This document shows positions 45,652 to 62,801 of a stretch of DNA of 64,000 nt, one piece after another. Under the pieces are notes generated by a model that ran no database searches, was not told where the DNA came from, and saw only the letters and a list, made by a program, of their open reading frames with translations. Numbering within the stretch: position 1 is the first letter of the stretch; each line of letters begins with the position of its first letter. Where the stretch lies: positions 620,001-684,000 of the forward strand of contig NW_027117346.1 in assembly GCF_038025025.1 (NCBI RefSeq), given 5' to 3'. The DNA is from Phyllosticta citribraziliensis (lineage: Eukaryota). The position numbers and the translations under genes were made by a program.

Positions 45652-46710
45652 ATGACGCGCAAGCGTAAACACGCGCAGTCGAGCCTCGTCGGCATTGAAC
45701 CTCTCGCTGCGGATGAAGCAACCCAAACTCTCGGTGTTGACGACAAAGACGACATTCCGAAACGACGCCGCCTGACCGCTGGTACTCACAAGAAAGCTCC
45801 TAATGACGACCTCGCAAAAGCCACCAGAGCTCTCCGAAGATTCCACTTCGATGACCCACGCGACAAACTCCCACTGGGCGAATTCCCTCGCGAAATCGTA
45901 CGCCAAATTGGTGATCATCTACCCGTCGATTCATTGCTCTCACTTGCGGCCACTTGCAAGAACCTCAAGCGCCTTCTCCGTCCAGTCACAAAGCACCTGG
46001 AAGTCGATCGCACCTCTCGCCAGACCTTCGCAAGATTTCTCGAACGCGATGCGATTTCGCGGACCGCCGCACGTGAGCGAGCCAGCGTCCACGACTACAT
46101 GAGAGCTTGCTCAGCTTGTATGAAGCTACACCACGTCGTCGATTTTTCTGCAACTCAGCTTCTTCAGTCACCTAAGACCAGAAAGTGCCGGGGCCAGGAG
46201 GCCGTTCTTCGCCTGTGTGAGCACATGACTGTGTCATGGGAGTTCTTGAGAAAGAGCGAGATGGATTGGTCCCAAATTTGTCACGACTTCGGCTGCATGC
46301 TCCGCTGCAAAAAGGAACGCCCTGGCATCATGACTTCGCCATCTCAGACTCACGACATTGCCGTCGTTGCGCGTTTTACGCTTTCAACCTTTAAAAGAGG
46401 AGCTACGGTGTACGAAAAAGACATCAGGGCTTCTCTGGGACGCCTCGGCTTTCGGATCTGCCCCCATACAGTTACGAACTCCAATCAATTTGCCGATCTT
46501 GAGGGATTGGAAGTGAATCACAAGCCCGAGGAATATCGCATCTTGGGTGCATTCGAAAAATGCCCCGATTCAAGTTGCTCGACTAGATTTCGCGTCGATG
46601 CGCATCCCAGGTTATTCTCGACCTCCATTGAGCTTGTCATCGAGAGGATAGTCGGGGCCTTAGTATATGCCGACGACACAGATTGGCTGGTTCAGTGTGG
46701 AGCCAATTGA
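45652..46710 (+). CDS. F-box-like + Cys/His-rich domain protein, paralogue 1 (352 aa)
   Basis: Intronless. F-box-like LGEFPREIVRQIGDHLPVDSLLSLAATCKNLKRLL; then RACSACMKLH...FSATQL...RKCRG, CEH, CHDFGC, CPHTVT, CPDSSC and DTDWLVQC. Basic N-terminus (RKRKH, PKRRRL). Confidence 0.85.
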   Translation: MTRKRKHAQSSLVGIEPLAADEATQTLGVDDKDDIPKRRRLTAGTHKKAPNDDLAKATRALRRFHFDDPRDKLPLGEFPREIVRQIGDHLPVDSLLSLAATCKNLKRLLRPVTKHLEVDRTSRQTFARFLERDAISRTAARERASVHDYMRACSACMKLHHVVDFSATQLLQSPKTRKCRGQEAVLRLCEHMTVSWEFLRKSEMDWSQICHDFGCMLRCKKERPGIMTSPSQTHDIAVVARFTLSTFKRGATVYEKDIRASLGRLGFRICPHTVTNSNQFADLEGLEVNHKPEEYRILGAFEKCPDSSCSTRFRVDAHPRLFSTSIELVIERIVGALVYADDTDWLVQCGAN

Positions 46711-47819
46711 ATACAGAGGCCCATATCAACGCCAAAGGGAAGGAGAAGTACAAAGCATTGGGGGATCAGATCAGACCATGGACTGCGAGGCTGTGACCTC
46801 AGATGGCGAACACCGGCTGAGGGAGGAAATCTCGGGTCGCTACACCAGGCTAGGAAGTAGAACAAAACAACAGTGAAATCGGAGCATCGTGGAAATTAAG
46901 CAAATGATGTTTTTAGTACTGCTGCATACTCAGAGTTCTTGCAATACTGCACTTTGCGGATGGCGTTGGGAGAGAATAGAGGCTCTTGGACATCACGAGC
47001 GTCAGCTCGACGATAGGATGAAGACACCCAATTTGAATGTCTCCAGGACACTCACGAGGAGGAAGGCTGTTGGGCAATGTAGAGTAGAAGCGTTGTACGA
47101 GAAAGACGTTCGAAACCACTGAAAGTGTTCCTGGCTTGCGGAGACAACGATGGCGTTGCCAGGTACCTATATAAACTGCAACCGCGACATCATTCGTATC
47201 AGCCGGTTAGCGCAATGGAATAGGACTCCGTCTCAACACTGTTGTCACCGACACCTTAAAGTGTAAAACCTGAGGGTGTGTGAGCGTAGGGTTTACGCGA
47301 TGCGGGAAGCAATTCCCCAAGCAGCCCAGACTTGAGTTCGACTCCCTCTTGGGGAGGAATGAAAGAAGGGTAAGCGCGTTTCTTTTTGATCTTTTGCGGT
47401 GTCGAGCGAGGCCTTAGGCTTTTGTTTTTTGTGGCTGTTGTTTGGATAAGGAGCGTTCGTTCACCACTGCGGCTGCGCTTGTTGTTGTGGAGCTGTCGTC
47501 CGCTACCTGAGTTGCGCTCAGGGAGCATTCATCCACCGTTACAGCTGCGCTTAGAGAAGCAGTGAAGCGGTGAGACTTGCGCAGACTTGAATCGTGAGCA
47601 TCTTGACATTGGTGTCGTTGGGTACATGTACTGAATGCTCCCAAACTCGGCAACACCCCGTCGAGCACCTGCCTCGTCGTGCCTGCCCGGCGTCCGCCAG
47701 CGCGCACCATCTACCCTCCCGTCTCCCTCTTCAACCTCTCCCACACCACTCAACTCACCAACCTTCCTCCACGACAACCTTGATCTACGCCGCCCCGAGA
47801 GCCGTAGCGCTCAACCTCA

Positions 47820-48836
47820 ATGTCTTCAGCGAAGCGGCCGCGTCTCTCCCAGTCGCAGCCGGCTGACGACGCTGCAAAGCCCCACTCGGATCAGCCGCTC
47901 AGTTCCAACCACCGCCATGACACCTTCCGGCTTGGAGAACTGCCCCCCGAGCTCGTGTTTCGGGTCAACGACTACCTTCCCACCGCGTCCTCACTTTCAC
48001 TCGCGGCAACATGCAAAGGTCTGAGGCAACTCCTCGACTCCAAGACTAAGCAGGCGCTGCGCGAGTTTGAAGTCTTCCGCAAGTCCCTCAAGTCCCGTCA
48101 GGACCGGAAAGCGTTGCTCACTCCGCGCAACGAGTTTCTGGGTTTTCTCCGACGTGATGCTCTTTCGAGGGCCGCCAGCTTCGAACGAGGCCGCGAAAAC
48201 GAAGCTCTACGAGTCTGCTCGTTCTGCGCGAGACTCCATTCCAGAAGTGCATTTTGTGCCGGGCAACTGATGCAACCACCGGAGACACGGAAATGTCGGG
48301 GAGTTGAAGAAGGCGCCTTCCGGATGTGCCAGCACGTCGGTTTTGAGTGGAACTCCCTAAGGACCACTCCAAGCTTTACACGTTTCGACTGTCAAAAGTG
48401 CGATAGGCGTACTTACAGTTTCCACGAGCGGGCCAACGTCCCTCTCTGGAACCAAGAGCCTTATGTCCACTTTCAGCTGAGGACTTATCGGCGTATCCTA
48501 AGCTATGAACCGGGGACAGAAGTTTACGGAAAGGACATCAGAAGTCGGCTGGGAGAATTGTGCCTGAACTTGTGCCCCCACACGGTGACAAGCTCGAAGC
48601 ACTTTGCTTGCATTCAAAATATGGAGTTCGTACGGGACGTGAGAGAGGCCACCTGCGTCGGACAAGAGCTTTGCATCTATCCGGGCTGCAAGACGACTTT
48701 TTACTTGTCTTGGCACACTCCTTGGACCATTGTTGGTTCCAGGCGTGGGACCATCTCCATTGTCACCGAACGAAATTTAGGACGTTTGGAGGATGCCACC
48801 GACCCAGACTGGCTAATTCAATGCGGCCTCCTTTGA
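47820..48836 (+). CDS. F-box-like + Cys/His-rich domain protein, paralogue 2 (338 aa)
   Basis: Intronless. LGELPPELVFRVNDYLPTASSLSLAATCKGLRQLL; RVCSFCARLH...QL...RKCRG, CQH, CQKC, CPHTVT, CIYPGC, RNLGRLEDATDPDWLIQC. NLS-like AKRPRL. Confidence 0.85.
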   Translation: MSSAKRPRLSQSQPADDAAKPHSDQPLSSNHRHDTFRLGELPPELVFRVNDYLPTASSLSLAATCKGLRQLLDSKTKQALREFEVFRKSLKSRQDRKALLTPRNEFLGFLRRDALSRAASFERGRENEALRVCSFCARLHSRSAFCAGQLMQPPETRKCRGVEEGAFRMCQHVGFEWNSLRTTPSFTRFDCQKCDRRTYSFHERANVPLWNQEPYVHFQLRTYRRILSYEPGTEVYGKDIRSRLGELCLNLCPHTVTSSKHFACIQNMEFVRDVREATCVGQELCIYPGCKTTFYLSWHTPWTIVGSRRGTISIVTERNLGRLEDATDPDWLIQCGLL

Positions 48837-51800
48837 TTACAGGTACTCAAAGCGGCCAACACGAGGACCCGAAGGGCTGCGCAAAGTCGGAAGAGGCCAG
48901 AGAACAGCGACTCGAGGATTGGCCATTTGCAAAGATCGCGGGAGGTGGAATTTCTGCATGAGATTGCCCCATCAACAGAACGACACTGAATTTGAAAAAT
49001 GGAGGACACAATGGCACAGCGCCAGCATGGTTCAGCGCCAGCATGGTTCGAGAGCGCTGAAACTTACACAAACTTGGCCAACCTCACAAAAGCCTTCGAC
49101 TTGTCGCAACACAAGGAACATTCATACACGTCCGCCAGTCTGTCACCTTTGCTCCGGCACTCAATACTCGGTTACAACGGACGAGAATCTAGCTGGGAGA
49201 CGGCGGCAGCGTCATTTCTTATCGCCGGATGGATATTTGGGAAGTATGGGAAATAAAAGCTAGCGGATGACGGACAACGGACTATTTGCACGGGGAAGAA
49301 GAGAGATTCATTGATCATGGGTGGACTGGACTTGCAGCGGGAGGTAATTCAGAGACAGGGCTGGGAGCCATTTTGCTGGGACGACAAAATGCTACTTTGT
49401 CGAGCGGGCCATAAAAGATCGTGGTCATCTATCTGACACTGTTAACAAATTCAATCTCATCATTTTCCCATGTATTGTGTATGCGGCCTTGGTAGTCTTG
49501 GTCGGAATTGTGAGCCTACTTGTGAGCCAACCATTGACATGCCTGACAAGCTCAGAGTCAAACTCTATGCCAGGTTTTCAAGAGTTTCCACGGGAGGAGG
49601 CCATCCCTCCGTTCACAGTAGCAAGCAGCACTCAATCCAAACCTACCTTCCAGGCGGCTCAACCAAGCAATACCAAGCAAGTGCAAGCCCACCGTACCGT
49701 CGGCGTACTTCGAAGAGCCACCGCCCACCCTCCATTTCAGCCCTACACCACGGCCGAACCAACAAGGCAAGAGGGACAGGCCCCACGTGCGGACCGCCCT
49801 CCTGCCACCGCGACCAAGGGAACCCCCGCCAAAGGGGACCCCCCGACCCTTGGGCTCGGATTCGTTCCGATGGGAAACCAACCAAGTCATTGTTCACGTC
49901 AGACCCTCCGGCCGGGGCGTCCTCAGCGCGCGGCCGCGTTGGGACACCGTGGCCAGCCAGCCAGCCGGCCAGCGAGTGAACAGAGGAGAGAGCAGACAGA
50001 GCGCATGATGCGGGCGGGCGAGGGAGCGTGCGAGGGCGGCGGCGGGCGGCGGCGACTCGAGTCGAGTAGGTAATCGGCCTCGGCCTCTGCAGACGCGGGC
50101 GGGCTCTTGGCTGACGCCATGGCCAACTGACGAGCGAAGAAAAAAAAAAAAAAAAGCGAAAGAACCCAACTTCGGATTTTTGGATTGGAGCCCATGAGGC
50201 GTGAGGGGGAAGGTCATAGCGAACGGGGCGGGATTGATGATGAATGAGAAGTGGTGGTGCGCGCGGCGGGCTGCTCCCAGGGCAGGCCTGTGTTGTTGGG
50301 AGGGCGCGCCCTACCTGACGGACGACGGACCTTAGGTGGCTGCCTGCCTGCCTGCCTGCCTGGGACGGGCCGGCGCTGGCTGGGTGTGTTGCGTGGGTGT
50401 GGCGTCACACTTTACTTTTTTTGTTGGTGCTGTGGTGCCTCTGCAGTTTTCTCCGTTCGGAGGGTGATGCACTGAAGGCACGGAGAGTCTTGGCCCGGTC
50501 CGCTGATGTGTACTGTTAAGTAATATCCGTCCTGTGGCGATTCATGGAATGGGTTCAGCGTGTGGTGTCAACGAGTAGAGGCCCTTCTTGGCTCGGTAGT
50601 GGTTCGGGACTTGATTGATTCATGGCAGTGGTTTGCTTCGATTAAGCTTTTGTCGTGCGCGTCGTCGTAAGGGGAAAGGTTTGCGACGGTTGACGGACGG
50701 AGAGAGGGAGGGAGGGCGGGCGAGAAAGAACGAGGAGAGAGATGGGGAGAAGGAGACGTTGGATTCAGCGTCAGCGCCTGCTCTTCTGCCCTCAAACTGA
50801 CCTGCTTAATGTGATACTAGTTTGCATCTACAGTCAGGTTCCTTCATGCAGCAGAGAGGCGCCCAGATGCTCTTGGCAGCCATCCTTACCATAAACATGT
50901 CAGTACCGTCGGAACGGAGGATACGCGCGTTCCCGCTATCTTGATCTTACCTGATGGTTTCGCGCAAATCACGTCGGCACAGGTGTCCGCATCAACTTGT
51001 GCCAAGAGAAAGCCCCCTCGCGCAATCCCACTCTGTGCCGTCCTGAGCAACTCGTGATGCGTCGCCTTTGCTCGGTAGCCCGAGCCACATAGACCGCCTT
51101 GCCCAAAATAGAAGCAGGTTCGCTGCTTTCGGGCCGTTTTCCCATGCCCTCGAGGATGACGTGCCTGTTGTCGTAGTGTTTCGCCGACCGGAGCCTGGCC
51201 GATCCCGGTCGAGGGTGAACATGGGCACGAGCCAGGGCGACGCGAAAAGAGCAAGTGTGGTGCAAACGGCGGACACACGAGGAAGCCGGATTGGCCTCCC
51301 TGTTTCAAGGTTTGCGGTCGCTGCGTGCTTAGTAACGGGCGTGGGTGGGGACTGAGAAAAAAAAAAGGGGAGGGGGGGCGAGAGGGAAGCGAGGTGGGAG
51401 GCGAGGTGGTCAGCAACACCACGGTTTGCACTCGACGATGTGGGAGAACAAAGTTACTACAACAGGCAATTTTCTGGGCTCCAGAGATTCGCTGGCCCTG
51501 TCGAATCCCCCAGATCTGTCGTCCTGCCGACGAAACAAGCTCTACCAAGCTTTTCTGCGCGGGTGTGGAGGAGGCTGTGTAGCTAGCCGAGCAGCGGGAA
51601 GGCTGTGTAAACGTCTGTTCACCAGGGGACTCCGCAGCAAGGCGCAGGGCAGTGAGGCTGTGCCTGCCTGGGAATTGAGGCTCAGCCTGCGCTTGGACGC
51701 TGAGCCTCAACTCCAACGTCAACTGTTGCCAGAAACCATCAAGAATCAACTGAAGGTGACCACAAACTGTCTCCGGATGCCGCACACAACGGGTCGGTGA

Positions 51801-53081
51801 TTTCGGCCGCGTGACGAGGTCTGCGGCCTGTCGGACCGTCTTGCCGTTTCTCAGAGGCACTGGCCGGCTGCCCTCCCCGCCAAAACGCCGCCGATTGTCT
51901 CGTCAACAGCTGATGCGCTTACGACGGGCTGCTGGCATTGCCAACACCTTTTCCGCGCCTGGCGACATGACCCGGACTCCAATGGCTCGACTGGCTCCGA
52001 CCTGTCCGCCTGTCGTCGTCACCGGGTAGCCTTTGGCCACCCTACCACAAGGCATTCCTTTGCTTCCGGCTTCCGGTCCGCGACTATTCCTGCACCGTGG
52101 TGTCCCAGGAGATGAAAGATAGAGAGACAGACCCACTTCCTGACTGGCACCGCTGATTTGAGTCGCTTTGATTTGTCCACGCGGCTATCTGGACTCCACC
52201 TCGACGTAGGCGATGTTGCAAGTAGCGAATGAGATGTCGTACTCTCAGGTCGGCCAAGAGATTGCCAAGAGGACTTGAGGGTGTTTAAAAGGTCAACACG
52301 GCAGTATTAAAGCAAAGAGGAGTGGAATGTCGTTGTGAAGGGTAATTTTCTGGTTTCTATTCTTCTTCTACGCAGACCGGAGAACACTAGTGCAAAGAGA
52401 CCGAAAAATGGAGCCAGCAAAGGCATTTTCGCATCCTAAGATCTTTGAATTCTTTTAGTCACCGAATGCGCTCGCTGAGTCCGGGCTCCGCGGAGCGTGC
52501 CCCGAGCTGGATCAGATCACGGGCAGTTGAAAGGCGGTCTTGCGTTTCCATCTTTCAGGCTTCTTTCGAATAGATTGCTAATTCTGTCATCCAGACACCA
52601 GCATTTCCACATGTCTGTCGCCGGGTAATGTGCCCTATTGAGAGGGGGCACCGGGCTGGTTCATCTCCATCCGAGTCGAGAAGTTGTGACCGATGTGATC
52701 CTTCGAAGGCGTTATCGGAAAATCTCTCGCTTCGACTCTCCGGACCAGACTCCAGAGATCCAGAATCCGTTGAGTCGACGATAAGGCTTCTTTCTTCTCT
52801 GCAGTACGACTGTTTCCACGACCATTGGTCAGGCATATTTCCTGAAGACTCATTTGTCATATGACTGTGATATTCATCATGATGCAAATCCAAGCCGGAA
52901 CCGACGTTGTCAGAATTCTTTCGCTGTCATTGTCCACGTTGCTATCGGCCCCGAGGCCAGGAAATTGGTGAAAAGAGGGGACAGGGTATGTCTCCGCACG
53001 GATAGTTCCCAGCGGTGAGCCTCCGACCGCCGATTGTGAGGGTTAGGGCTCGTCTTTTCCACGAGGACCCAGCGCAATTGA

Positions 53082-54821
53082 TCAGGCAAGCTGCAGGTCC
53101 ATGCCCATGGCCATCATTATGGCACGACGACATTCGGTCGAAGTGTCCCCTGTCAGGTCTCTGTGCTCCCAAATCTTTTGAATGACCTCGGCCATTTGGT
53201 TGAGGACCCCAACACCAAGCCTCACGCCCTTGGTAAAGAGGAACAACGCACGCCTCCGTAATTCCTCGCCTTCTGCTTCGCAAGCCGTTATCCAGATTGG
53301 CCAAGACACACCACACGTTTGCAGCTTCTCTTCAATGGCATACACGGCCTCCAAATGTTGTGCTGATGCAAGAACCCAATGCTGGACTTCAGAAGCTGGT
53401 AATTTTCTGAACTCTCGGTTGAGATTGATGTGACAGGCGTAATAGAAGGACATGCTGTGGTGCGTGAGCAGCAGTTTCTCCATGCCCTGCCAGGCTTGGA
53501 TACCAGCAACCTCATCTTTGGCGCATTCGATCATGGCCTCGACCTCTTGCAATTCGTGTTCCGTTGTTGGGGTTTCGCGATCCCGCAGAATGTGCATCAT
53601 CCGCAGGGACTCGAAGAGCGCTCTGGGAACACCGAACATTGCGTCCATTCGATAGTCGATCTCCGCCGGGAGTGGTGAGCCACAGTCGAGCAGATTGATG
53701 TGCGAGTCGTGGTTCGCGTCGATGAGGCGTCTCGAGTCCTGAGAGAAGTTGAGCAACTCGACGCAGCGGAACATTTGGTAGAGGATGGCAGCCGAGCCAG
53801 AGCTTCCCCAGCCCGGGCCTTGAGCGCGCAGCCAGCTGCGAGCGCCATGCATATGGACTCGCCAGTCTGTGGGGTGACCAACTATCCAGCCAATGGCGCC
53901 TAATAAGAGTATTGTTGCAAAGACTGACTCCGAGTCCAACCGAATATCTTGCAGGCTCTGCCTGAGGTTCCCGAGACACTTGCCGTAGTGCCTGACGGCT
54001 AAGCGCGAATAATTATCTATGAGAGACTGTTCTGAGGCCTGCTCAGCAACATGGTAGGCCGATATGGCATATATTCCATGCAGAAGGGCCGCGTGGCCAG
54101 GCCGGCTGGTGAGCACCTCGCCGGGCTGCAGGACAAGCGGAATGCAAACATTCTGAAAGGGGTTGTCGGTCGATGTGATCGGGACAAGCATCCTGGCCAG
54201 ATTGGAAGTGTAGTGGTGGAACAAGGAGCGTTCGGACTCGTTGGCGAAGAGCATTGCTGGGTTGATCTCCATCGGGAGACTGGGAGCGTATTCGTATCGA
54301 CGAGGGTCGTAAGCGCCAACGTTGAAGTAAAAGCTTGAGTCTTCGATGGGGGGAGGACCATGGCGGTGAACATGTCGGAAAGGGAATTGAGCGGTCGTTG
54401 AGAGGACAGAAAGGTCGAGGGCTGTCGGTTGATGGTCGTAGTCGGAGCGGACCAGCATCTGGATATCGTCGTCCTCGTGGGTCGATCCAGGGACGGAGAA
54501 GACGCCAAAGGGACCAATGATGGACTCGCAGGGCGATTCGAGGGTCTCGAGCCTTGCCAGAGCGTCGTCGAGAAAGTCGTCTGGGTATATTGGGTTCTGA
54601 CGGTCGGCCTCGCTGATTAAGCGCCGAGTGGGATAGGCAACATTGGGAAGGGTGTCGTTGGCATCGAGCCATACAAGGCGCAGGCCATAGCCTTTGCACT
54701 CACGGCCGCTTTTGGAGCACCTCTCGCAGGTGGGTTTGGCGAGGTCGCACTTGACACCGCGCTCTCGACATGTCCAGCAGCCGTTGAAGGTCTTTGTGCG
54801 TTTCTTGTGGGTGCGCACCAT
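53082..54821 (-). CDS. Zn(II)2Cys6 transcription factor, Arg81/ArgRII-like cluster with fungal-specific TF C-terminal domain
   Basis: ATG at 54821. KTFNGCWTCRERGVKCDLAKPTCERCSKSGRECKGY is a six-Cys cluster. The C-terminal region (LFHHY...DNPF...ALLHGIYAISAYH...WRVHMHGA...WPIWITACEA) fits Fungal_trans_2-type domains. Intronless. Confidence 0.92.
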   Translation of the reverse strand: MVRTHKKRTKTFNGCWTCRERGVKCDLAKPTCERCSKSGRECKGYGLRLVWLDANDTLPNVAYPTRRLISEADRQNPIYPDDFLDDALARLETLESPCESIIGPFGVFSVPGSTHEDDDIQMLVRSDYDHQPTALDLSVLSTTAQFPFRHVHRHGPPPIEDSSFYFNVGAYDPRRYEYAPSLPMEINPAMLFANESERSLFHHYTSNLARMLVPITSTDNPFQNVCIPLVLQPGEVLTSRPGHAALLHGIYAISAYHVAEQASEQSLIDNYSRLAVRHYGKCLGNLRQSLQDIRLDSESVFATILLLGAIGWIVGHPTDWRVHMHGARSWLRAQGPGWGSSGSAAILYQMFRCVELLNFSQDSRRLIDANHDSHINLLDCGSPLPAEIDYRMDAMFGVPRALFESLRMMHILRDRETPTTEHELQEVEAMIECAKDEVAGIQAWQGMEKLLLTHHSMSFYYACHINLNREFRKLPASEVQHWVLASAQHLEAVYAIEEKLQTCGVSWPIWITACEAEGEELRRRALFLFTKGVRLGVGVLNQMAEVIQKIWEHRDLTGDTSTECRRAIMMAMGMDLQLA

Positions 54822-57800
54822 GGTCCAGCCAGGCGATGTCAGCGGCACGGGGGGAGGAGGAGGGGCGGGGAAGCGGAATCGAGGTGGAAACGAACGGTAG
54901 GGCTGCTAGGGCTGGCATGGCTGTCATCCATGACGGGTCTGGAGTGATAATGTAGTCGTGGAGTTGCAGTAGTTGCGTTGCCGTGATTAATGTCCAGTCC
55001 AGCGGGTGGGCCGGCGAACGGGAAGAGCGGCAGCACACTCAAGACGGGCACTGCGCTGCCCGCCAGGGAGCGCCCAAGGGCATCCAACACCATCAAACGG
55101 CTTCGACGCTCAACGGACGTCCACTTGGCTTGCCGCCGGCCACAAAACCTTTCACCCCTCTATCAAATCGGTACCAAAATAGAAGGGCCCCGACGTTTCT
55201 CCCACCACCGTCCCCCCCACCTCACCGCAATCCGCTGCCTCGACGCTTTCGGATCCAACAAGCCGGACCACGGGGCCTTCAGAGCCTCTTTCTTGCAGCG
55301 CGGTTCGGTCCGCCGGCCTGGTTGGCAGCATGGCTACTGTACCTTTGTCGGCGTTGCCGTAACACGAGCCAACCCCGTCTCTGCCTCACAAGGAACACTC
55401 CCTGCCTCCTGCTTGCTTGATCGCGGAAGATGCCAAAGCCCTAAGGCTTGCCACCGCTTCTAGAAGCATATCAAATCGAGACCCAAAACTATGTCAACCG
55501 ACATGACGCACCTGCCAGAGGCTTCTCGTGCGCCCAGAAAGCCCTCCCAAGTTTTGTCCTGACTCCCCAGCTGGCCGGTTGCAATCCAGCCAAGGCGGTC
55601 ACCCCGAGCTCTCCACGTCACCGCGCAGTTGATCCTCCGCATCAGCCGCCCCTCTTTGCCCTGGAAGTCTCAATGTAGGTACAAGCTCAACAAGCGGATT
55701 CCACGCCATTGAAAGCTTGACGGGCCCGGCTTGCGGTCTCTGGGTTTGACTGACTCAAACGACGCCAAAAGACTGGCAATCTTTTCCCTAATCTCTGGCA
55801 ATCGGCCTCTGGAAAACCTCACCACGACAGCACTTGTGACGACTCCCCGCTCCACTCGTTCGATGAGTACTTGGTCGGTTCCACACTGCCCAGAGACGTG
55901 TTTCTAAATGGATTCTTGGCCGCATCCCCGTATGCAACCAAGAGCGATGAGATGTACCAGTGAGGATGGAAATTTGTCGGGGCACGGACGGCTTGGGGCT
56001 TATGGTGGCCATCGCATGCTGAGTGTGATGAGGGCGCCAAAGACCAGGCTGAAGTCGCAAGCCCCGGTGGAGTCAGTCAAAGTCCCTGCGCCGCCGGGGC
56101 TGGGTGCTTCATCACCAGCCACCCACTCTGCCAAAAGGCGAGATCCTTGGCACCCCCGTCGGCCTTACTGTCGTCGTTGATCTCCAGGTCCGTGATCCTT
56201 GGCGTGTTGATGTACCCGTCCTGACCAGGTTCACAATTTGCTTGGCAGTGACCGGAAAGGGCTGACTGCCCTCGGGTGGAGTAGGAAGCCCCCGCTGTCC
56301 GCATTATATCCGTGCGTGAAGGTCCACCTAGTGTACCCGATGGCCATTATCGACCACTGACTGCGTATGCATGGCCATTCCAAAGAACGTGACCAGCTCT
56401 GCTGCCAAGATTACTATCAGAAGCCACCGGGGTTCGCGGAAGAAGACAGCAGTATTCCCGTCGTCCCTTGTTTGGACCCGTCCTATTGACGTGCAGCATG
56501 GGCCACAAGCAAAGAGCCGCTTGGAAACGCAAGGCCAAATCAGCGCTCTTGTGTTAGGCGAGGACACTCACTTCTAGTGGGCTGGCATTCTTCTCATTGG
56601 TCCAATTCACTCAAACCGGCGGCATTGAAGCGCGAATCAGTCTGGTGGGCCACAGGAAGACCACAGGATTTTGTTTTCCTCGTTACAAGGCCGAATCGTT
56701 CCGCCGGAGACGGTCCCACATTCTTTGGAACGGTCACTGCATCTAGAACGGAGAGCGTTCCTCCGAAGTGTGGGTTTGAGCAAGATCTGGAGGTACCCAA
56801 GTGTTGACTGAGCTGTCATGGCGCAACGCGTACTAGAAAAAATCGCCACAGTGGCCCAAACTTCGAACCAATGGACAGTCGAGAACCGTTTATTCCACCT
56901 TTAAGGCACAGGAGCTTTCTCCTTCTGCGAATCGCTGAAAGAGACAAGAGATCCCTGTCTTTCTCGAAGTTAAACGGCACCATTGGCCAACTTACTCGCC
57001 AAGTGACAGTAAGCATGAAAGCATGGAATCAAAGCTTCACGCAGACACTCGTGACCTCCTTCTTGCCAAGGTAACTCCTTACTCAAACGGTCAAGTACTT
57101 CCTCCACATTCTTGGGGGAAAAGCCCCATGAAGCGGTTACAAGATGCTCTGGGAAGGCTTGTGGCTGGACAAGCGGAGCAAGGCGCATGTTAGAGGCTGT
57201 ACAGCGACTGTTGCGCAAGTGGCATGGCGGCTGCGCCCTGGCGGCTGCAAGTTCCGGCGTGATCAAAGGCCTGGCTGTGCACGAGATGAATCCACGCTCC
57301 ATGCCTGCCGACTTTGAATGACCGTCAACGTGGCACAGTCGACAGCAAGGACTTTTAGCTGTGGAGCGCGGGCAGTTGGCTTTTGCAATACGAAGCCCTG
57401 TACAGAATCTGCCGTACTCCGATGTGTATCTTTCGGCCGAGCAAAGTCCAACTCAAGGGTTGCGATGTGTTGCTTGGATCGGACTTGCTTGAGCAAGCAC
57501 GGCCCCTTCGCTGCCCCCTCGGTCAAGTCACAGGGTGGTACGCATGGCGCGACTGACGAACCAAAGACTTGTTGACGGTCAGTCTGCCTGTTGATTGAAG
57601 TCACAGATCCGACGGCACCATCCAAGATCCAGCTTTCCGAGAACAGCCATCATGGAGCCATCTTGGCCGCTCAGGTTTTGCTTTCGTCCAAGTAAGTGTT
57701 GTCTGGAAGCAGGGACTGACGCAGTCCGCTCATCGCGACAGACAGGTGGCATTCCTCGAACCCTACCGTTCCTCCCTCGTGGCAAACTTCAACGACGCGC

Positions 57801-58880
57801 GGCCAGCAATCACAAGCAGAAGATAATCAGCTTCTACGATTTGATCTTCACGAGGGACAGAACATCAAGTGGTGACTGAAGGGCATGGCACGGACGAACC
57901 CCACCGGTAGCCAACTCCAAAGTTGTCCCCTGAACCGACTATCTCCGAGAGCTATACATAGCATGGCACGCTCCAAGTCCCCTCCACGTCGGCGGAACGG
58001 CCAACGGCAAGCACTGATGCTCGAGGGAGTTGGTCAAAGCCGGAGAACAAGGCGAACCGTACGCTGTCGTGCTCGGGCAGAGGCGGCTAAGCGCTCGTGG
58101 TCAGCGGAATCGGACGCTACCAGGACTTCAAGTCGAACTTCAGAAATAGAGATCACCCACGCCATCACCAATGGCTCGCACTGTGTCGCCATGCTGTAAG
58201 CCTCCACTTGTTCTTACCCTATACACGCTCAACCAAGGCTTAGCTGACTCGTGGAAACACCAGGACCACTTGGATCCCGAGGCTCTTTCGAACTTGAGAA
58301 TCCGTATGGAGTCTCCGCAGATCTACTTTTCCATCCCCTGATCGCTCGCCCCTGGCTCTTTGGCTACCAGCGCGCGTTTGAGCCCAACAACGACACCGAG
58401 TCAGACGCGAAACAAAACCTCGCCGTTTCAGCCCCGATGACACTTTGGGTTCGTGTCAGAAATGGCTGGCAAGATGGGAACTCTGGACAAGTTCGCCAAA
58501 GAAGAACGAGGGCAAGTTCACGGGCGAGGCATCTCTTCCGAGCAGCCAAGGCGCAATGCCAGAGCGGAGAAGGAAGTGACAAATTCGAGACAAGATGGCT
58601 TGCTTGGTCAGTGGAAGAGCCAAGGTGCCTCATTGCCTTTTCCGGCAGAGGAGCAGCGAGAATCAAAGGCAACATCAGACGAAGGTCGCAAGCAGTACGT
58701 GCAATTCACTACACCAAGAGTACAATGAACTTCCGGATGTATTTGTCAAGTCTACCATGCTGAAGAGATTGTTCCAGACAATGAACATTGTATGCAAGCG
58801 TTTTGGGCTGAGAAAGACTAAATTGGGCCAATCTGCTGGTTTCGTACTGTTGATGAATGACCGGAATGTCCCATGTGCGC

Positions 58881-60332
58881 CTACCATCCACTGCGCACGA
58901 CACCAAACTTTTCTTCGTCGTAGTATTCCTCCTCGAAGTCTTCCTCCTCGTAGTACTCCTCCTCGGTGTACTCCTCCTCGGTGTACTCCTCCTCGATGTT
59001 TCCCTCCTCGAGTTTTCCCTCATCGCCGGATTCGTCGTCGCTGGATTCGTCGTCGCTGGACTCGTCGTCGCTGGATTCGTCGTCGCTGGACTCGTCGTCG
59101 CTGTACTCGTCGTCGCTGTATTCGATCTCGTCGTCGGACCATACGCCCTTGTTGTTTATCACGTCAAGGGATCCCTCTGGCCACCATCCTTCGCGGTACA
59201 GTCTCTCGCGCCACGATTCCTCGCGTTCAATTGGGGCGTCCTCGGTCTGAATTAGCCATTCTGGCTCGTCCGGTGCCTCCATGACACCCAGATCGCGAGT
59301 GATTCCGAGACTGATGATGCCCTCAGTGACGTCGATGAAGAGTTTGGTATTGCATCCTGGTTGCGTGCAATATGCAGTGGTTTTTTTCGGAAGGATGGCC
59401 TGGAGCTCGTCGGAGATCTCTTTGCCTCCTTTTTCGTCCGCAAATTTGAACTTGAGACTGCTGACATTCGGGAATGTGTCCTTGGTCGTGACCGTGTGGG
59501 GGCAGACTTGTCGCTGCCATTGTCCGAGTCTATCCGCAACGAGCTTGCCTTCGGTGACCCAGCCTGGATAGATTTTCGCGAGGAGCCGATATTTGGTGAT
59601 TTGGACGGTCTTGCTTTCGTCGATTGCGCTGCCGGTGTTGGGAGGACATGGGTCCTTCTGACGCGTCCTCCTGAACCTGAAAAGCTTGCCTTCACTGCCT
59701 TCGTCCGAGCATTTCTGGCAGTGAAAACGGTCGTTCGTGACCCCGTCGTCGTCGCCTTGCAGATTGTCGGAGGGAGGGATTCGAGCCACGGCGTCCCAAG
59801 TGTAGGTCGTGTGTTCGCAGGGCTTAAATATTCTTGCTCTTCCTCGACATTTCCGCAGCTTTGGTGGGTTCAGGAGCTGTGTGCTGGTGAAATATCTAAT
59901 ATGGTGTAGCCTACTGCAGGCCCCGCAAGCTCTAAGTGGATCGTCGAGTCCGCTGGTTCTTTCATGCTTGATGCAGACGGCCAGCTTATCGCGGTCTTGC
60001 AAATGACGAAACTTCGAACGAGAGGCCTCGTCTGCCTTTTTGGTGATGGGAAAGAGAATGCCCTGGAAGTCCCGGCATGTCGCTGAGAGGGACAGGGTGG
60101 ATTCCGTGGGCATGTTCTTTCCGACCCGGTAAAAAAGCTCCGCTGGAAGATCACCTAGTCGAAACTTTTTGCCATCATTCCGAAGATGCAACTTTTGAAG
60201 TCTCTTCGTGACCTCGGTGATCTGGTCAACTGTTTCGTCAAGCTTCGATTTCAAGAACTCTTTCGTCATGTCGGCGGGCATTTTGTTGGTGTTGCAAGGG
60301 TGAGGTGACTCGTGGAATCCCGTGGCAACCAT
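58881..60332 (-). CDS. F-box-like + Cys/His-rich domain protein, paralogue 3, with acidic repeat tail
   Basis: First ATG at 60332 (alternative 60281). LGDLPAELFYRVGKNMPTESTLSLSATCRDFQGIL; RACGACSRLH...FTSTQL...RKCRG, CEH, CQKC, CPHTVT, CTQPGC, RDLGVMEAPDEPEWLIQ; Asp/Glu-rich C-terminus. Confidence 0.85.
   Translation of the reverse strand: MVATGFHESPHPCNTNKMPADMTKEFLKSKLDETVDQITEVTKRLQKLHLRNDGKKFRLGDLPAELFYRVGKNMPTESTLSLSATCRDFQGILFPITKKADEASRSKFRHLQDRDKLAVCIKHERTSGLDDPLRACGACSRLHHIRYFTSTQLLNPPKLRKCRGRARIFKPCEHTTYTWDAVARIPPSDNLQGDDDGVTNDRFHCQKCSDEGSEGKLFRFRRTRQKDPCPPNTGSAIDESKTVQITKYRLLAKIYPGWVTEGKLVADRLGQWQRQVCPHTVTTKDTFPNVSSLKFKFADEKGGKEISDELQAILPKKTTAYCTQPGCNTKLFIDVTEGIISLGITRDLGVMEAPDEPEWLIQTEDAPIEREESWRERLYREGWWPEGSLDVINNKGVWSDDEIEYSDDEYSDDESSDDESSDDESSDDESSDDESGDEGKLEEGNIEEEYTEEEYTEEEYYEEEDFEEEYYDEEKFGVVRSGW
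58911..59137 (-). repeat. 15-bp tandem repeats encoding SDDE(S/Y) and EEEY(T/Y)
   Basis: Plus-strand units ctggaYtcgtcgtcg and tcctcctcggtgtac; SDDE occurs seven times in the protein. Confidence 0.9.
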
Positions 60333-61601
60333 TTTGTGTGGTAGGCTTGACCGAACTTTCCGGAAAGGGAGTGAGATCAAGATTCCCAGGTGAGAAACAG
60401 GAGGCCTGGATTCTCGTCAGCCTTCAATCGACTTGATAAAGAGGGGACCTTGTAGATGTAGTTCTTTGAGCAAGAGACAGACAATGATCATACCTTTGAG
60501 TTGTTGGAATACGTGGAGTGTTCGTTTGAGACCAAAAGTGTCTTTTGTTCAAGTTGAGGTGGGTACCAGATTGAGATGCGCTGAGGTGAAGAGCGGACAG
60601 AAGCGGGAGCGGAGGAGCGTAGAGCTTTATACCCGAGCTGCTTTGCCAGATCAATTCACAGTCAGCGGATCTTTACATTGGTACAGGGACATTTGATGCC
60701 TGGTACAGGGTGTGAAGACCCTTTGCCATTATTTTTGGTTGGCTGCATTGCAACCAGGGAAAAGGGGCGACAGATTACGTTGTTGTCGTTGAGTTGCCGC
60801 AACCATGGATTGCAATCGGTCGCATTGCGCACCACTTGACCAGGGGATTGCGTTGCGTGTTCTTGAGCAGCACAACCGTGGTTTGCACATGCGCTCATGG
60901 CTTGCTATGATCTGATGATTGTCGTCCGCACGTTGTCCAGGGAGTGGTCGACTGAACCTACTAGTCACAACCCGAAGTTGGGATGTCGTTGAGAGTTGTA
61001 CTGTACATTTTCTGCGCCATCACACTTTTATTCAAGTATACCATTTCTCTGAGCCGTCGGCCCAACTGCGTAAATCAAAAGCCTTAAGGTGTGATACGTC
61101 AGAGATGGATTCGGAAACATCGTCTTGTGTCCTCAACAAAAATTTTGAATATAAGAGGAGGAGGAGCAAAGCAATAAGTAGATGACTTAGGAGTGGACTA
61201 GGCGTGAAAAACTGCTTTTAAGCAATCAGCACAACTCGGCAACGTAAACCTCTATTAGAGGTATGTGATTAGTTGATTGCCCAAACCAGCAGGTGCCGGA
61301 TCGATTGAATTGCGCTGCGTTGAGCGACTCGATTGCGCAACTTGCGCAACGGGTTGAGTTGTTGACCGCACTGATACTCAGGGGCAACCACCAAGTAGTG
61401 GGAGGAAGACGAAAATCAGACAGCAAGATAGATCAACTCGAGCCTCCGTCGAAGCTTGTGGTTGAATGATGTCAATCGACAAATCGCCGTCTTTGTTGCG
61501 TTCTCAAGCGCAAAGTGCAACCATCCGTTCTCAGCAGAATGCTCCCGAGATCCCCTGCTTTCGGCTCCGCTCTCGGCTCCCCTGGTTTTCAGAAGTCAGG
61601 A

Positions 61602-62801
61602 TCAGTCGTCAAAGTCGTGAATATTAAGCGGCCGACTCGTCGAGGCTGAGCGTGGAGGTTCAACGTGATTGATCCACTTTGGGTCGCTAGGATCTTCGAG
61701 TGGACCAAGGTCGCGTTTGGTATGGATGTCAAGCCTCAAGTTTCGAGTATTCCGATATAAATACCGCACAATCCAAACGCGAGTTCCACATTCCGGCTCT
61801 GTGCAGCCTCCCCTGAAGCAGCTGGTGATCGGTTCATCTTGCCTTGCAAAATCGAACTTCAGGGCTACCAGCGCGTCGTGTACTCTGGGGAGTGCTCTGG
61901 CGACGGTGCTGTGAGGACAAATTTTGTCACTTAATCCTTTTTTTAGCAGCTCTTGGAAAACATTGCTGCTCGACTCCTTCCGAATCCTGAGTCTTACTGA
62001 ACCAATCAGAGATTCCATCATAAAAGTCTTGTTGGGTTGGTTCCCTGGTGGACTTTGCGTGAGGGAAACCATTGCGTGTGCCTGACAATGTTGTTGGCAG
62101 GAGTAAAAGTTTTCGAAGGGCTTGTTCTTTCGGCATAGGTATCTGGGATCCAAAGTTTCCTTCAGGTAGTTCCACGAAAGGCCTGTGTGATTGCAGATGT
62201 GTGTGAGTCCATTCTGGCCTCGACACTTACGCAACTTGACCGGATAATGAAGCTGGATAATCGAGAAATGGTCCTTTGTATGCAACTTGTGGCAACCCGC
62301 ACATGCCCGCGTTTCGGGGTCCTCGTTGTGTAACTCGCTCTTGTAAGCCCTGGAAAATGCATCCCGATTTAGGTATCCGGTGAAATCTTTCTGGGTAATA
62401 TAATCTTCAGGCGCAACATGGGGAATGATTGCCCGGAGTTCCTTGCAAGTTGCTGCCAAAGAAAGGGATGAGCCATGCGGCAAATATCGGTTTATGTTGA
62501 GAACCAATTCTGGTGATAAGTTCCCCAAGTGAAATCTGTCCCGAGGATCGTCGATCTTGAATTGCTCCAATCGCCTGACCATTTCATCGATTTCTTCTTC
62601 AAAATGGGTGTCCGGAAGTGGGTCCAAATCCATGTATGTGGGAACACCAGTCAAGTCAAATTCCCCAAATTCTCTCAACAGAATTTTCGAGTTGGCTGGC
62701 AGAGCTTGTGGAGACATAGTGGTGCTCTTGTCGTTGGTGGGCTCCATATTGCAGTTAGATGCTGGGTAGAAGTAGGGGCGAACTCGGGAGGCTTTAGGCA
62801 T
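61602..62801 (-). CDS. F-box-like + Cys/His-rich domain protein, paralogue 4
   Basis: First in-frame ATG at 62801 (start uncertain). DDPRDRFHLGNLSPELVLNINRYLPHGSSLSLAATCKELRAII; RACAGCHKLH...FSIIQL...RKCRG, CNH, CQQHC, CPHS, CTEPEC, RDLGPLEDPSDPKW. Confidence 0.85.
   Translation of the reverse strand: MPKASRVRPYFYPASNCNMEPTNDKSTTMSPQALPANSKILLREFGEFDLTGVPTYMDLDPLPDTHFEEEIDEMVRRLEQFKIDDPRDRFHLGNLSPELVLNINRYLPHGSSLSLAATCKELRAIIPHVAPEDYITQKDFTGYLNRDAFSRAYKSELHNEDPETRACAGCHKLHTKDHFSIIQLHYPVKLRKCRGQNGLTHICNHTGLSWNYLKETLDPRYLCRKNKPFENFYSCQQHCQAHAMVSLTQSPPGNQPNKTFMMESLIGSVRLRIRKESSSNVFQELLKKGLSDKICPHSTVARALPRVHDALVALKFDFARQDEPITSCFRGGCTEPECGTRVWIVRYLYRNTRNLRLDIHTKRDLGPLEDPSDPKWINHVEPPRSASTSRPLNIHDFDD

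What the first reader, a model, noticed from the sequence alone, without database searches (positions are those of the whole stretch)
45652..62801. Local array of four highly diverged F-box/zinc-finger paralogues bracketing a Zn2Cys6 regulator
Seen in sequence: four intronless ORFs (45652+, 47820+, 60332-, 62801-) share one architecture. It runs (F/L)xLG(E/D/N)(L/F)xxE(L/I)...LSL(A/S)ATC, then RD, RxCxxCxxLH-x4-F-x3-QL-x6-RKCRG, CxH...W, a C-x2-4-C pair, CPH, C-x4-C, and R-x-(L/V)G-x8-W. The sequence between motifs is strongly diverged. The genes form two tandem pairs pointing toward each other, with a Zn2Cys6 gene and long empty spacers between them. Established: F-box motifs recruit substrates to SCF (Skp1-Cul1) ligases, and expanded, fast-evolving F-box families in nematodes and plants are linked to pathogen or non-self recognition. 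Inference: this may be an uncharacterised diversified ubiquitin-adaptor system (antiviral/anti-selfish-element defence, allorecognition or antidote function), possibly co-regulated by the central TF.
Basis: partly seen in the sequence, partly recalled or inferred. Interest (0 to 1): 0.8.

Follow-up and report, generated by a model that had tools for sequence, protein, structure and literature searches.

The report
Fungal F-box zinc-domain gene cluster
Four neighbouring genes in a citrus-associated fungus encode probable ubiquitin-ligase adaptors with an unnamed cysteine-rich recognition domain that is widespread in filamentous fungi; in one gene this domain has changed drastically between close species, but what the proteins recognise is unknown.

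Summary
Four intronless paralogues (28-39% identical to the first) join an N-terminal F-box to a ~230-residue domain with 11 near-invariant Cys/His. That domain folds confidently in AlphaFold2 (pLDDT 91), and I could not assign it to any Pfam model or solved fold. It is not local: a domain-only profile finds 1,270 clusters at 50% identity, 69 of 132 top hits carry an F-box, and this genome has 12 loci, three damaged. The cluster is old in Phyllosticta and partly reshuffled. Gene 2 keeps 89% identity to its positional orthologue in a sister species over its first 75 residues but only 47% over the domain, whereas genes 3 and 4 keep 93%. Within species, copies are almost all 97-100% identical. 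The central transcription factor is absent from between the four genes in 6 of 6 P. capitalensis assemblies (accession order), and the promoters share no motif. The spacers are transcribed, not empty. Best reading: SCF substrate receptors of a large undescribed ascomycete family evolving by birth and death. Skp1 binding, zinc binding, targets and any defence role are inferred, not shown.

The parts
45652..46710 (+). Gene 1 (P0001, 352 aa): F-box at aa 77-110 plus Cys/His-rich C-terminal domain
   Evidence: PF00646 21.7 bits, over cut-off 20.5; orthologue P0006/P0312 in the P. citricarpa group, 51% identical; RNA contigs in X1, X2, X3
47168..47387 (+). Pol III-type element between genes 1 and 2: TATA (47168), A-box-like (47208), B-box-like (47334), T-run (47379); five copies in the genome; identity unknown
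   Evidence: no Rfam match, no ARAGORN call
47820..48836 (+). Gene 2 (P0002, 338 aa): F-box aa 36-74 (47925-48041), C-terminal domain aa 108-338 (48141-48833); the domain is strongly diverged from the positional orthologue
   Evidence: (PF12937 E 1.1e-4, under cut-off)
53082..54821 (-). Zn2Cys6 + Fungal_trans_2 transcription factor (P0005, 579 aa), with a long transcribed, spliced 3' region reaching about 48.7 kb; probably not part of the system
   Evidence: 97% and 90% identical to P. citrichinensis and P. citricarpa
57400..58800 (+). Spliced + strand transcript convergent on gene 3 (introns after 57691, 58195, 58694); approximate ends; ORFs of at most 160 codons in the spliced forms; possibly non-coding
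   Evidence: poly(A)-like loose end at 58735 in run X3
58881..60332 (-). Gene 3 (P0003, 483 aa): F-box-like motif (no Pfam match), C-terminal domain, acidic tail from a 15-bp repeat (58915-59139) that varies in length
   Evidence: (30-base gaps in X1 and X2); 91% identical to P. citrichinensis P0011
61602..62801 (-). Gene 4 (P0004, 399 aa): F-box aa 94-126 plus C-terminal domain
   Evidence: (E 0.028); 89% identical to P. citrichinensis P0315

Best explanation
The four genes encode substrate receptors for SCF (Skp1-Cul1-F-box) ubiquitin ligases and belong to a large, unnamed family of filamentous ascomycetes. The F-box docks on the genome's Skp1 (inferred from family membership; about 0.85). 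The C-terminal domain is a scaffold whose 11 near-invariant Cys/His most likely bind about three zinc ions: C133/C136/H140/C159, C170/H172/C191 plus a nearby Cys, and C252/H254/C285/C290 in gene 2 numbering (pairing inferred from spacing only). The scaffold holds a five-stranded beta-sheet whose sequence is free to vary and which probably grips the substrate (inferred). Each paralogue would send a different protein or protein set to the proteasome. The cluster arose by tandem duplication early in Phyllosticta and has evolved by birth and death, with some members frozen (genes 3, 4) and one position (gene 2) whose recognition module has been rapidly remodelled or swapped. The TF is a neighbour, not a component. 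The targets are most likely specialised and dispensable; a biotic-conflict target is a live but minority possibility.
For: F-box: Pfam hits in 3 of 4 window proteins. 69 of 132 homologues retrieved with a profile lacking F-box positions have an F-box at E<=0.01. The family profile hits 18 PDB sequences, all F-box proteins, best FBXO31 E 2e-6. Model residues about 32-95 align to solved F-boxes, e.g. 5ibk_E Z 4.5, rmsd 2.5, 48 aligned (low Z, tied with unrelated helical rows). One Skp1 locus was found in the genome. Domain: each of the 11 Cys/His is kept in 89-100% of filled rows of 154 aligned; AlphaFold2 pLDDT 91, pTM 0.85. Divergence pattern: across orthologue and paralogue pairs the F-box and first finger are 38-90% identical and the middle 17-36%, except genes 3 and 4 against P. 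citrichinensis (85-96% throughout). Gene 2 contrast: domain 90/193 identical against 420/452 for genes 3+4, Fisher p 3e-37, while the first 75 residues do not differ (p 0.69). Birth and death: 12 loci in the genome, two split across frames and one lacking the CPH motif; gene order and content differ among species by accession order. The same domain pattern is reported for nematode F-box genes (PMC12062965, passages seen).
Against: Only gene 1 passes a Pfam F-box cut-off and gene 3 has no Pfam match. In A. nidulans 28 predicted F-box proteins were not found with SkpA or CulA (PMC9744329, section 7), so the motif does not guarantee SCF assembly. Zinc binding and the substrate surface rest on conservation alone; I could not inspect model coordinates. 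No dN/dS could be computed, so relaxed constraint, positive selection and module exchange are not separated. Relative-rate tests give no consistent acceleration on the gene 2 branch (1 of 8 tests below p 0.05). The TF does sit among the genes in P. citrichinensis and the P. citricarpa group.
Confidence: 0.7

Rival explanations
1. Conflict receptors: the family is a fungal counterpart of nematode fast-evolving F-box genes, degrading viral, transposon, selfish-toxin or non-self proteins, with the sheet changing in an arms race.
For: Gene 2 domain 47% against 89% in its N-terminal 75 residues between sister species whose TF is 97% identical. Orthologues in the P. citricarpa group are 42-51% identical where the TF is 90%. 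Tandem arrays and decayed copies. Precedent: F-box antidotes (PMC12680543, abstract) and a hybrid-lethal F-box gene (PMC11573670, abstract).
Against: Genes 3 and 4 are 92-96% identical to P. citrichinensis in the sheet and C-terminal part. Within-species copies are 97-100% identical in 14 of 16 comparisons (13 in P. capitalensis, one each in three other species); the other two are 93% and involve models of different length. No toxin-like, HET or NLR gene was recognised among the ORFs of 40-64 kb or the right flank (by reading, flanks not scanned with Pfam). [quoted passage not shown]
Confidence: 0.25
2. Genomic drift: weakly constrained duplicates in which only the F-box and metal ligands are kept, and the gene 2 contrast reflects unequal crossing-over or gene conversion between old paralogues, not selection on a target.
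For: Gene 2 and its positional orthologue are about as far apart in the middle (21/72) as gene 2 and a more distant species' copy (21/78), as a module exchange would give. Broken copies exist. Drift is proposed for lineage-specific plant F-box genes (PMC3030570, abstract).
Against: The ORFs are intact over long divergence, genes 3 and 4 are conserved at 89-91%, and RNA contigs cover genes 1, 3 and 4 in two organisms. The last 18 residues of gene 2 return to 15/18 identity, and identity falls gradually rather than at one breakpoint.
Confidence: 0.3
3. RNA-silencing link: the first finger is a relative of the Stc1 tandem zinc finger, so these proteins would couple SCF to Argonaute or silencing complexes.
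For: Stc1 is the commonest non-F-box Pfam family among members (4 of 132, best E 0.049). The genome's two Stc1-domain genes rank 2nd and 3rd of 2,629 frames with the domain profile (E 0.31, 0.63). hhalign aligns 27 columns, CxxC..FS..Q (E 0.011; TF control E 0.43). Stc1 bridges RITS and CLRC (PMC8490990, passages).
Against: hhalign probability is only 3.7%. Only one finger with a His in place of a Cys is shared. None of the 12 loci lies near the Piwi-domain genes on C1, C15 and C19, and the stretches fetched around those genes gave no convincing match to the domain profile.
Confidence: 0.07
4. TF-centred regulon: the Zn2Cys6 factor controls the four flanking genes as one unit.
For: The TF lies between family members in the window, in P. 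citrichinensis (accessions ...516, TF ...517...518...519) and in the P. citricarpa group (...842, TF ...844...846...847).
Against: Four consecutive accessions with no gene between them in 6 of 6 P. capitalensis assemblies. No 7-mer or 8-mer is shared by all four 700-bp upstream regions (random controls 1.7 and 0.2), and no CGG-pair spacing is common to all four. The other eight loci are unlinked to the TF.
Confidence: 0.12

Closest known systems
SCF F-box substrate receptors, FBXO ('other domain') class, e.g. FBXO31 (PDB 5vzt), FBXW7/Cdc4, Skp2; A. nidulans Fbx1-74 (PMC9744329)
   Same: [quoted passage not shown]
   Different: The C-terminal domain is not WD40, LRR or any Pfam domain found; it has 11 invariant Cys/His and a variable beta-sheet. 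Whether any A. nidulans Fbx belongs to this family was not tested.
Caenorhabditis F-box A (FTH) families and KSS antidotes / Cni-neib-1 (PMC12062965, PMC12680543, PMC11573670)
   Same: Multi-copy, clustered, conserved F-box with a fast-changing substrate domain; broken copies.
   Different: Unrelated substrate domain; about 12 copies per genome, against e.g. 33 recent paralogues of Cni-neib-1 in one species; paralogues are old, not recent; positive selection and targets not shown here.
Stc1 zinc-finger domain (Pfam PF12898, PDB 2luy)
   Same: Faint CxxC-x8-FS-x2-Q likeness in the first finger.
   Different: Single finger with His as third ligand, no tandem repeat, hhalign probability 3.7%; fused to an F-box and a beta-sheet domain.

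Membership tests
F-box proteins (PF00646/PF12937) | F-box motif near the N-terminus | tested here: met
   Gene 1 over the Pfam cut-off; genes 2 and 4 below it; gene 3 no Pfam match but aligns in register. Family profile hits only F-box proteins in the PDB, 18 of 18.
F-box proteins (PF00646/PF12937) | Three-helix F-box fold | tested here: inconclusive
   Model has helices 37-40, 43-51, 55-62 and aligns to several solved F-boxes, but at Z 3.7-4.9, tied with unrelated helical proteins.
SCF substrate receptors | Binds Skp1 and assembles with Cul1 | not tested
One Skp1 locus found in the genome.
SCF substrate receptors | Recruits a substrate for ubiquitylation | not testable with these tools
   Needs pull-downs and degradation assays.
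FBXW / FBXL classes | WD40 or LRR substrate domain | tested here: not met
   No WD40 or LRR Pfam match in the 4 window proteins or 132 homologues; predicted secondary structure is a zinc-finger-like part plus one sheet.
Stc1 domain (PF12898) | Tandem C4 zinc fingers scoring over the Pfam cut-off | tested here: not met
   No window protein matches; 4 of 132 members match weakly, best E 0.049; own-genome PF12898 search does not return these loci.
Any solved fold for the C-terminal domain | Significant structural match | tested here: inconclusive
   Searches; see Tried and rejected.
Conflict-type F-box families (nematode FBXA, KSS) | Positive selection in the substrate domain with purifying selection in the F-box | tested here: inconclusive
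   Protein-level contrast is strong for gene 2 and absent for genes 3 and 4; no coding DNA of relatives, so no dN/dS.
Fungal het / allorecognition loci | Highly divergent alleles within a species | tested here: not met
   14 of 16 within-species protein comparisons are 97-100% identical, the other two 93% with models of different length. Small sample, mostly one species; orthologues of gene 2 within this species were not sampled.

The most novel reading that the evidence does not exclude
The family is an undescribed, ascomycete-wide repertoire of zinc-scaffolded recognition modules that plug into SCF and act as intracellular immune or antidote receptors, with the beta-sheet playing the part of a variable binding surface and being remodelled or swapped between paralogues (gene 2). 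It would be a ubiquitin-based arm of fungal immunity alongside NLR/HET cell death and RNA silencing.
Probability: 0.2. Interest if true: 0.8.

Novelty: new variant of a known kind. Interest (0 to 1): 0.47.

Why it matters
Most F-box proteins of filamentous fungi have no assigned substrate domain. This defines one: a confidently folding, apparently unnamed domain present in more than a thousand divergent clusters, with a ready profile and a predicted variable surface. Gene 2 and its P. citrichinensis counterpart form a natural pair (same F-box, different sheet) that makes the question directly testable: do fungi use fast-evolving SCF receptors against viruses or selfish elements, as nematodes do? 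If the targets are ordinary host proteins, the gain is a new domain family and corrected gene models.

Tried and rejected
Fold of the C-terminal domain: no match. VIA-align against 48,161 chains gave best Z 4.3 (8d33_B, rmsd 4.6, 122 aligned) and none at Z>=5. Foldseek gave none at E<=0.001 in PDB or BFVD (whole protein). Sequence-profile search of the PDB gave best E 0.82. This does not prove a new fold.

Skp1 complex prediction: tool not available, no result. Loci around relatives: the alignment had no stretch conserved enough for the metagenome scan, so gene neighbourhoods outside Phyllosticta are untested. The last word-index search with the wide alignment returned only 7 proteins and no new species names, so range beyond Dothideomycetes is not established: all named hits looked up were Dothideomycetes, and the Atlas says only 'Ascomycota'.

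Expression of gene 2: no listed contig piece covers it in any of the 4 runs (94 pieces not shown; X1 shows some depth), and relative X3 has no cover at 80% likeness; this is neither absence nor silence. Run X5 covers the TF but none of the four genes. Cover of gene 1 in X1 is on a contig continuous with the upstream transporter mRNA, and cover of gene 3 is on contigs joined to + strand exons, so strand and level cannot be read.

RIP or foreign origin: dinucleotide indices and GC3 of the four genes are like the rest of the window. Recent duplication: no long DNA repeats between the genes. Identity with the Argonaute-adjacent F-box array noted earlier in this genome: not found.

Pol III-type element: no Rfam, no ARAGORN, fold z -0.49, 6 of 52 predicted pairs with a two-sided change in 5 copies, 0 metagenome matches.

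Literature: nine searches showed no description of this domain or cluster in the listings; subscription papers are not covered, and the supplements of PMC9744329 (domain figure, orthologue table) were not opened and could hold a member. Earlier scan notes: no match by sequence or by the first word search.
Full report
Observation. The window is fungal. Identity to gene 1 is 39, 29 and 28%, and all listed motifs align; the last is G-x9-W, not x8. Proteins annotated as Phyllosticta citribraziliensis match loci of this genome exactly, so that is the likely species; that it is a citrus endophyte is recalled, not from a call.

The F-box is real but weak. Gene 1 passes the Pfam cut-off, genes 2 and 4 score below it, and gene 3 has no match. 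Family-level evidence is stronger. A profile built from the region after the F-box (A2, 247 positions) retrieved 1,270 clusters at 50% identity with E<=0.001, 430 at 1e-10. Of the 146 new proteins listed I scanned the first 132; 69 have an F-box at E<=0.01, and no other Pfam family recurs at that level apart from further F-box models. A profile of 74 members, chosen largely among those with an F-box hit, matches 18 PDB sequences, all F-box proteins. In A. nidulans 46 of 74 F-box proteins were found with SkpA or CulA (PMC9744329, passages and section 7 read), so the motif makes SCF assembly likely, not certain.

The C-terminal domain. In 154 aligned rows, C133, C136, H140, C159, C170, H172, C191, C252, H254, C285 and C290 (gene 2 numbering) are kept in 89-100% of filled rows, with F145, R157 and W331. 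AlphaFold2 gives pLDDT 86.5 for the whole protein and 91.2 for the domain alone: a long helix, a small finger region, and a sheet of five long strands with one packing helix. About three zinc sites is my inference from spacing. The strands coincide with the least conserved stretches among 14 Phyllosticta members. I could not assign the domain to a known family or fold (details under Tried and rejected). The Atlas returns only ascomycete clusters named 'hypothetical' or 'F-box domain-containing'. A faint likeness of the first finger to Stc1 exists (4 of 132 members, best E 0.049; hhalign probability 3.7%) but is not enough for membership.

Not a local system. The genome holds 12 loci: four here, one each on C2, C5, C11 and C18, and four on C7, three of them in tandem (a lower bound). 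Two are split across reading frames (third C7 gene; C11, whose P. citrichinensis counterpart is continuous) and the C2 copy lacks the CPH motif; assembly error is not excluded. Named relatives come from Phyllosticta, Aplosporella, Saccharata, Parastagonospora and Lophium (30 look-ups in all, 9 of them clusters with no organism named).

History of the cluster. The four genes group with other Phyllosticta proteins (quick tree of 45 rows, SH-aLRT 99; careful tree of 21 rows, 94/96). Gene 1 pairs with a P. citricarpa-group gene, genes 2, 3 and 4 with P. citrichinensis genes (99-100 bootstrap), and gene 3 also with the P. citricarpa group. Gene order is read from consecutive accession numbers, an inference. 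P. citrichinensis: gene 2, TF, gene 3, gene 4. P. citricarpa group: gene-2-like, gene 1, TF, gene 3, with one unidentified number on each side of the TF. P. capitalensis: four family members in a row with nothing between, in 6 of 6 assemblies, not one-to-one with the window's four. So the array is old, partly reshuffled, and can exist without a central TF. Where the P. capitalensis TF lies is unknown. The four upstream regions share no 7- or 8-mer (crude control from random window stretches: 1.7 and 0.2).

Rates. Against P. citrichinensis the TF is 97% identical, gene 3 91%, gene 4 89%, gene 2 59%. For gene 2 the first 75 residues, including the unstructured start, are 67/75 identical, like genes 3 and 4 (p 0.69), but the domain is 90/193 against 420/452 (p 3e-37) and the middle 21/72 against 177/191. 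Both branches are long, and only 1 of 8 relative-rate tests is below p 0.05, so this fits either selection in both lineages or exchange of an old module. Against the P. citricarpa group the three available pairs are 42-51% identical where the TF is 90%. Within species, 14 of 16 comparisons are 97-100% and two are 93% with models of different length, unlike allorecognition genes (that these carry divergent alleles is from abstracts listed), though sampling is thin. No dN/dS was possible.

Expression. Three of the four runs laid show exact GT..AG splice joints, so they are RNA. Genes 1, 3 and 4 are covered by contigs in run X1 (same organism) and run X3 (a relative, 89-93% identical there against 97% over the TF region). 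Contigs over gene 4 end at 61164 and 61166 in two studies, a weak hint of a transcript end. Contigs cannot give strand or level. The spacers carry the TF's long spliced 3' region and a spliced + strand transcript converging on gene 3 without a convincing ORF.

Mechanism. Most likely each protein docks on Skp1 through its F-box and presents a zinc-braced, variable sheet to a substrate that is then ubiquitylated (shown: architecture, conservation pattern, predicted fold; inferred: zinc, Skp1 binding, substrate surface; unknown: substrates). The conserved-F-box, variable-domain pattern is the one reported for nematode F-box A genes (PMC12062965, passages), some of which act as antidotes or cause hybrid lethality (PMC12680543, PMC11573670, abstracts). 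Drift is the standing alternative for such families (PMC3030570, abstract and headings). I put a conflict role at about 0.25. PMC8490990 was read in passages for Stc1; PMC7648066 and PMC3571971 mention F-box only in their reference lists.

Verdict. A real feature and a new variant of a known kind: F-box receptors with an apparently undescribed, widespread Cys/His-rich domain. Nine literature searches showed no description of it, within the library's limits. Interest 0.47.

Noticed in passing
window 47168-47387 (+); copies at G000 C8:1271193, C5:1025453, C3:65506, C7:94821: Five-copy ~220-bp element with upstream TATA, tRNA-type A- and B-boxes about 125 bases apart and a T-run end, 71-83% identical between copies; no Rfam or ARAGORN call; matched by contigs of all four RNA runs. 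Possibly an unannotated Pol III RNA family or a tRNA-derived SINE.
   Followed up: partly
window about 57400-58800 (+): Spliced transcript with three GT..AG introns, seen in runs X1, X2 and (in part) X3, converging on gene 3; one form continues into the gene 3 region; longest ORF 160 codons.
   Followed up: partly
window 48669-53081 (-): One contig of run X1 spans 48669-54860: the TF may have a 3' region of over 4 kb with an intron at 50884-50949; 51.5-53 kb is conserved in two relatives despite having no long ORF.
   Followed up: no
window 55500-60500: Run X2 differs from the window at about 1% or more of sites here but is identical over the listed transporter, gene 1 and TF pieces: a polymorphic block that includes gene 3.
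   Followed up: no
window 61885-62230 (-): Two public models of gene 4 (P0009, P0010) stop just after the first finger, apparently through a predicted intron starting at the conserved RKC codons; such models will hide family members from protein searches.
   Followed up: partly
G000 C1:252447 and C1:318500 (L054, L055): Two Stc1-domain genes over the Pfam cut-off, 66 kb apart, 53% identical over the domain.
   Followed up: no
G000 C15, C19, C10, C11, C12: Other groups of neighbouring F-box genes; those on C15 and C19 lie within about 30 kb of Piwi-domain genes and do not match this domain profile.
   Followed up: partly
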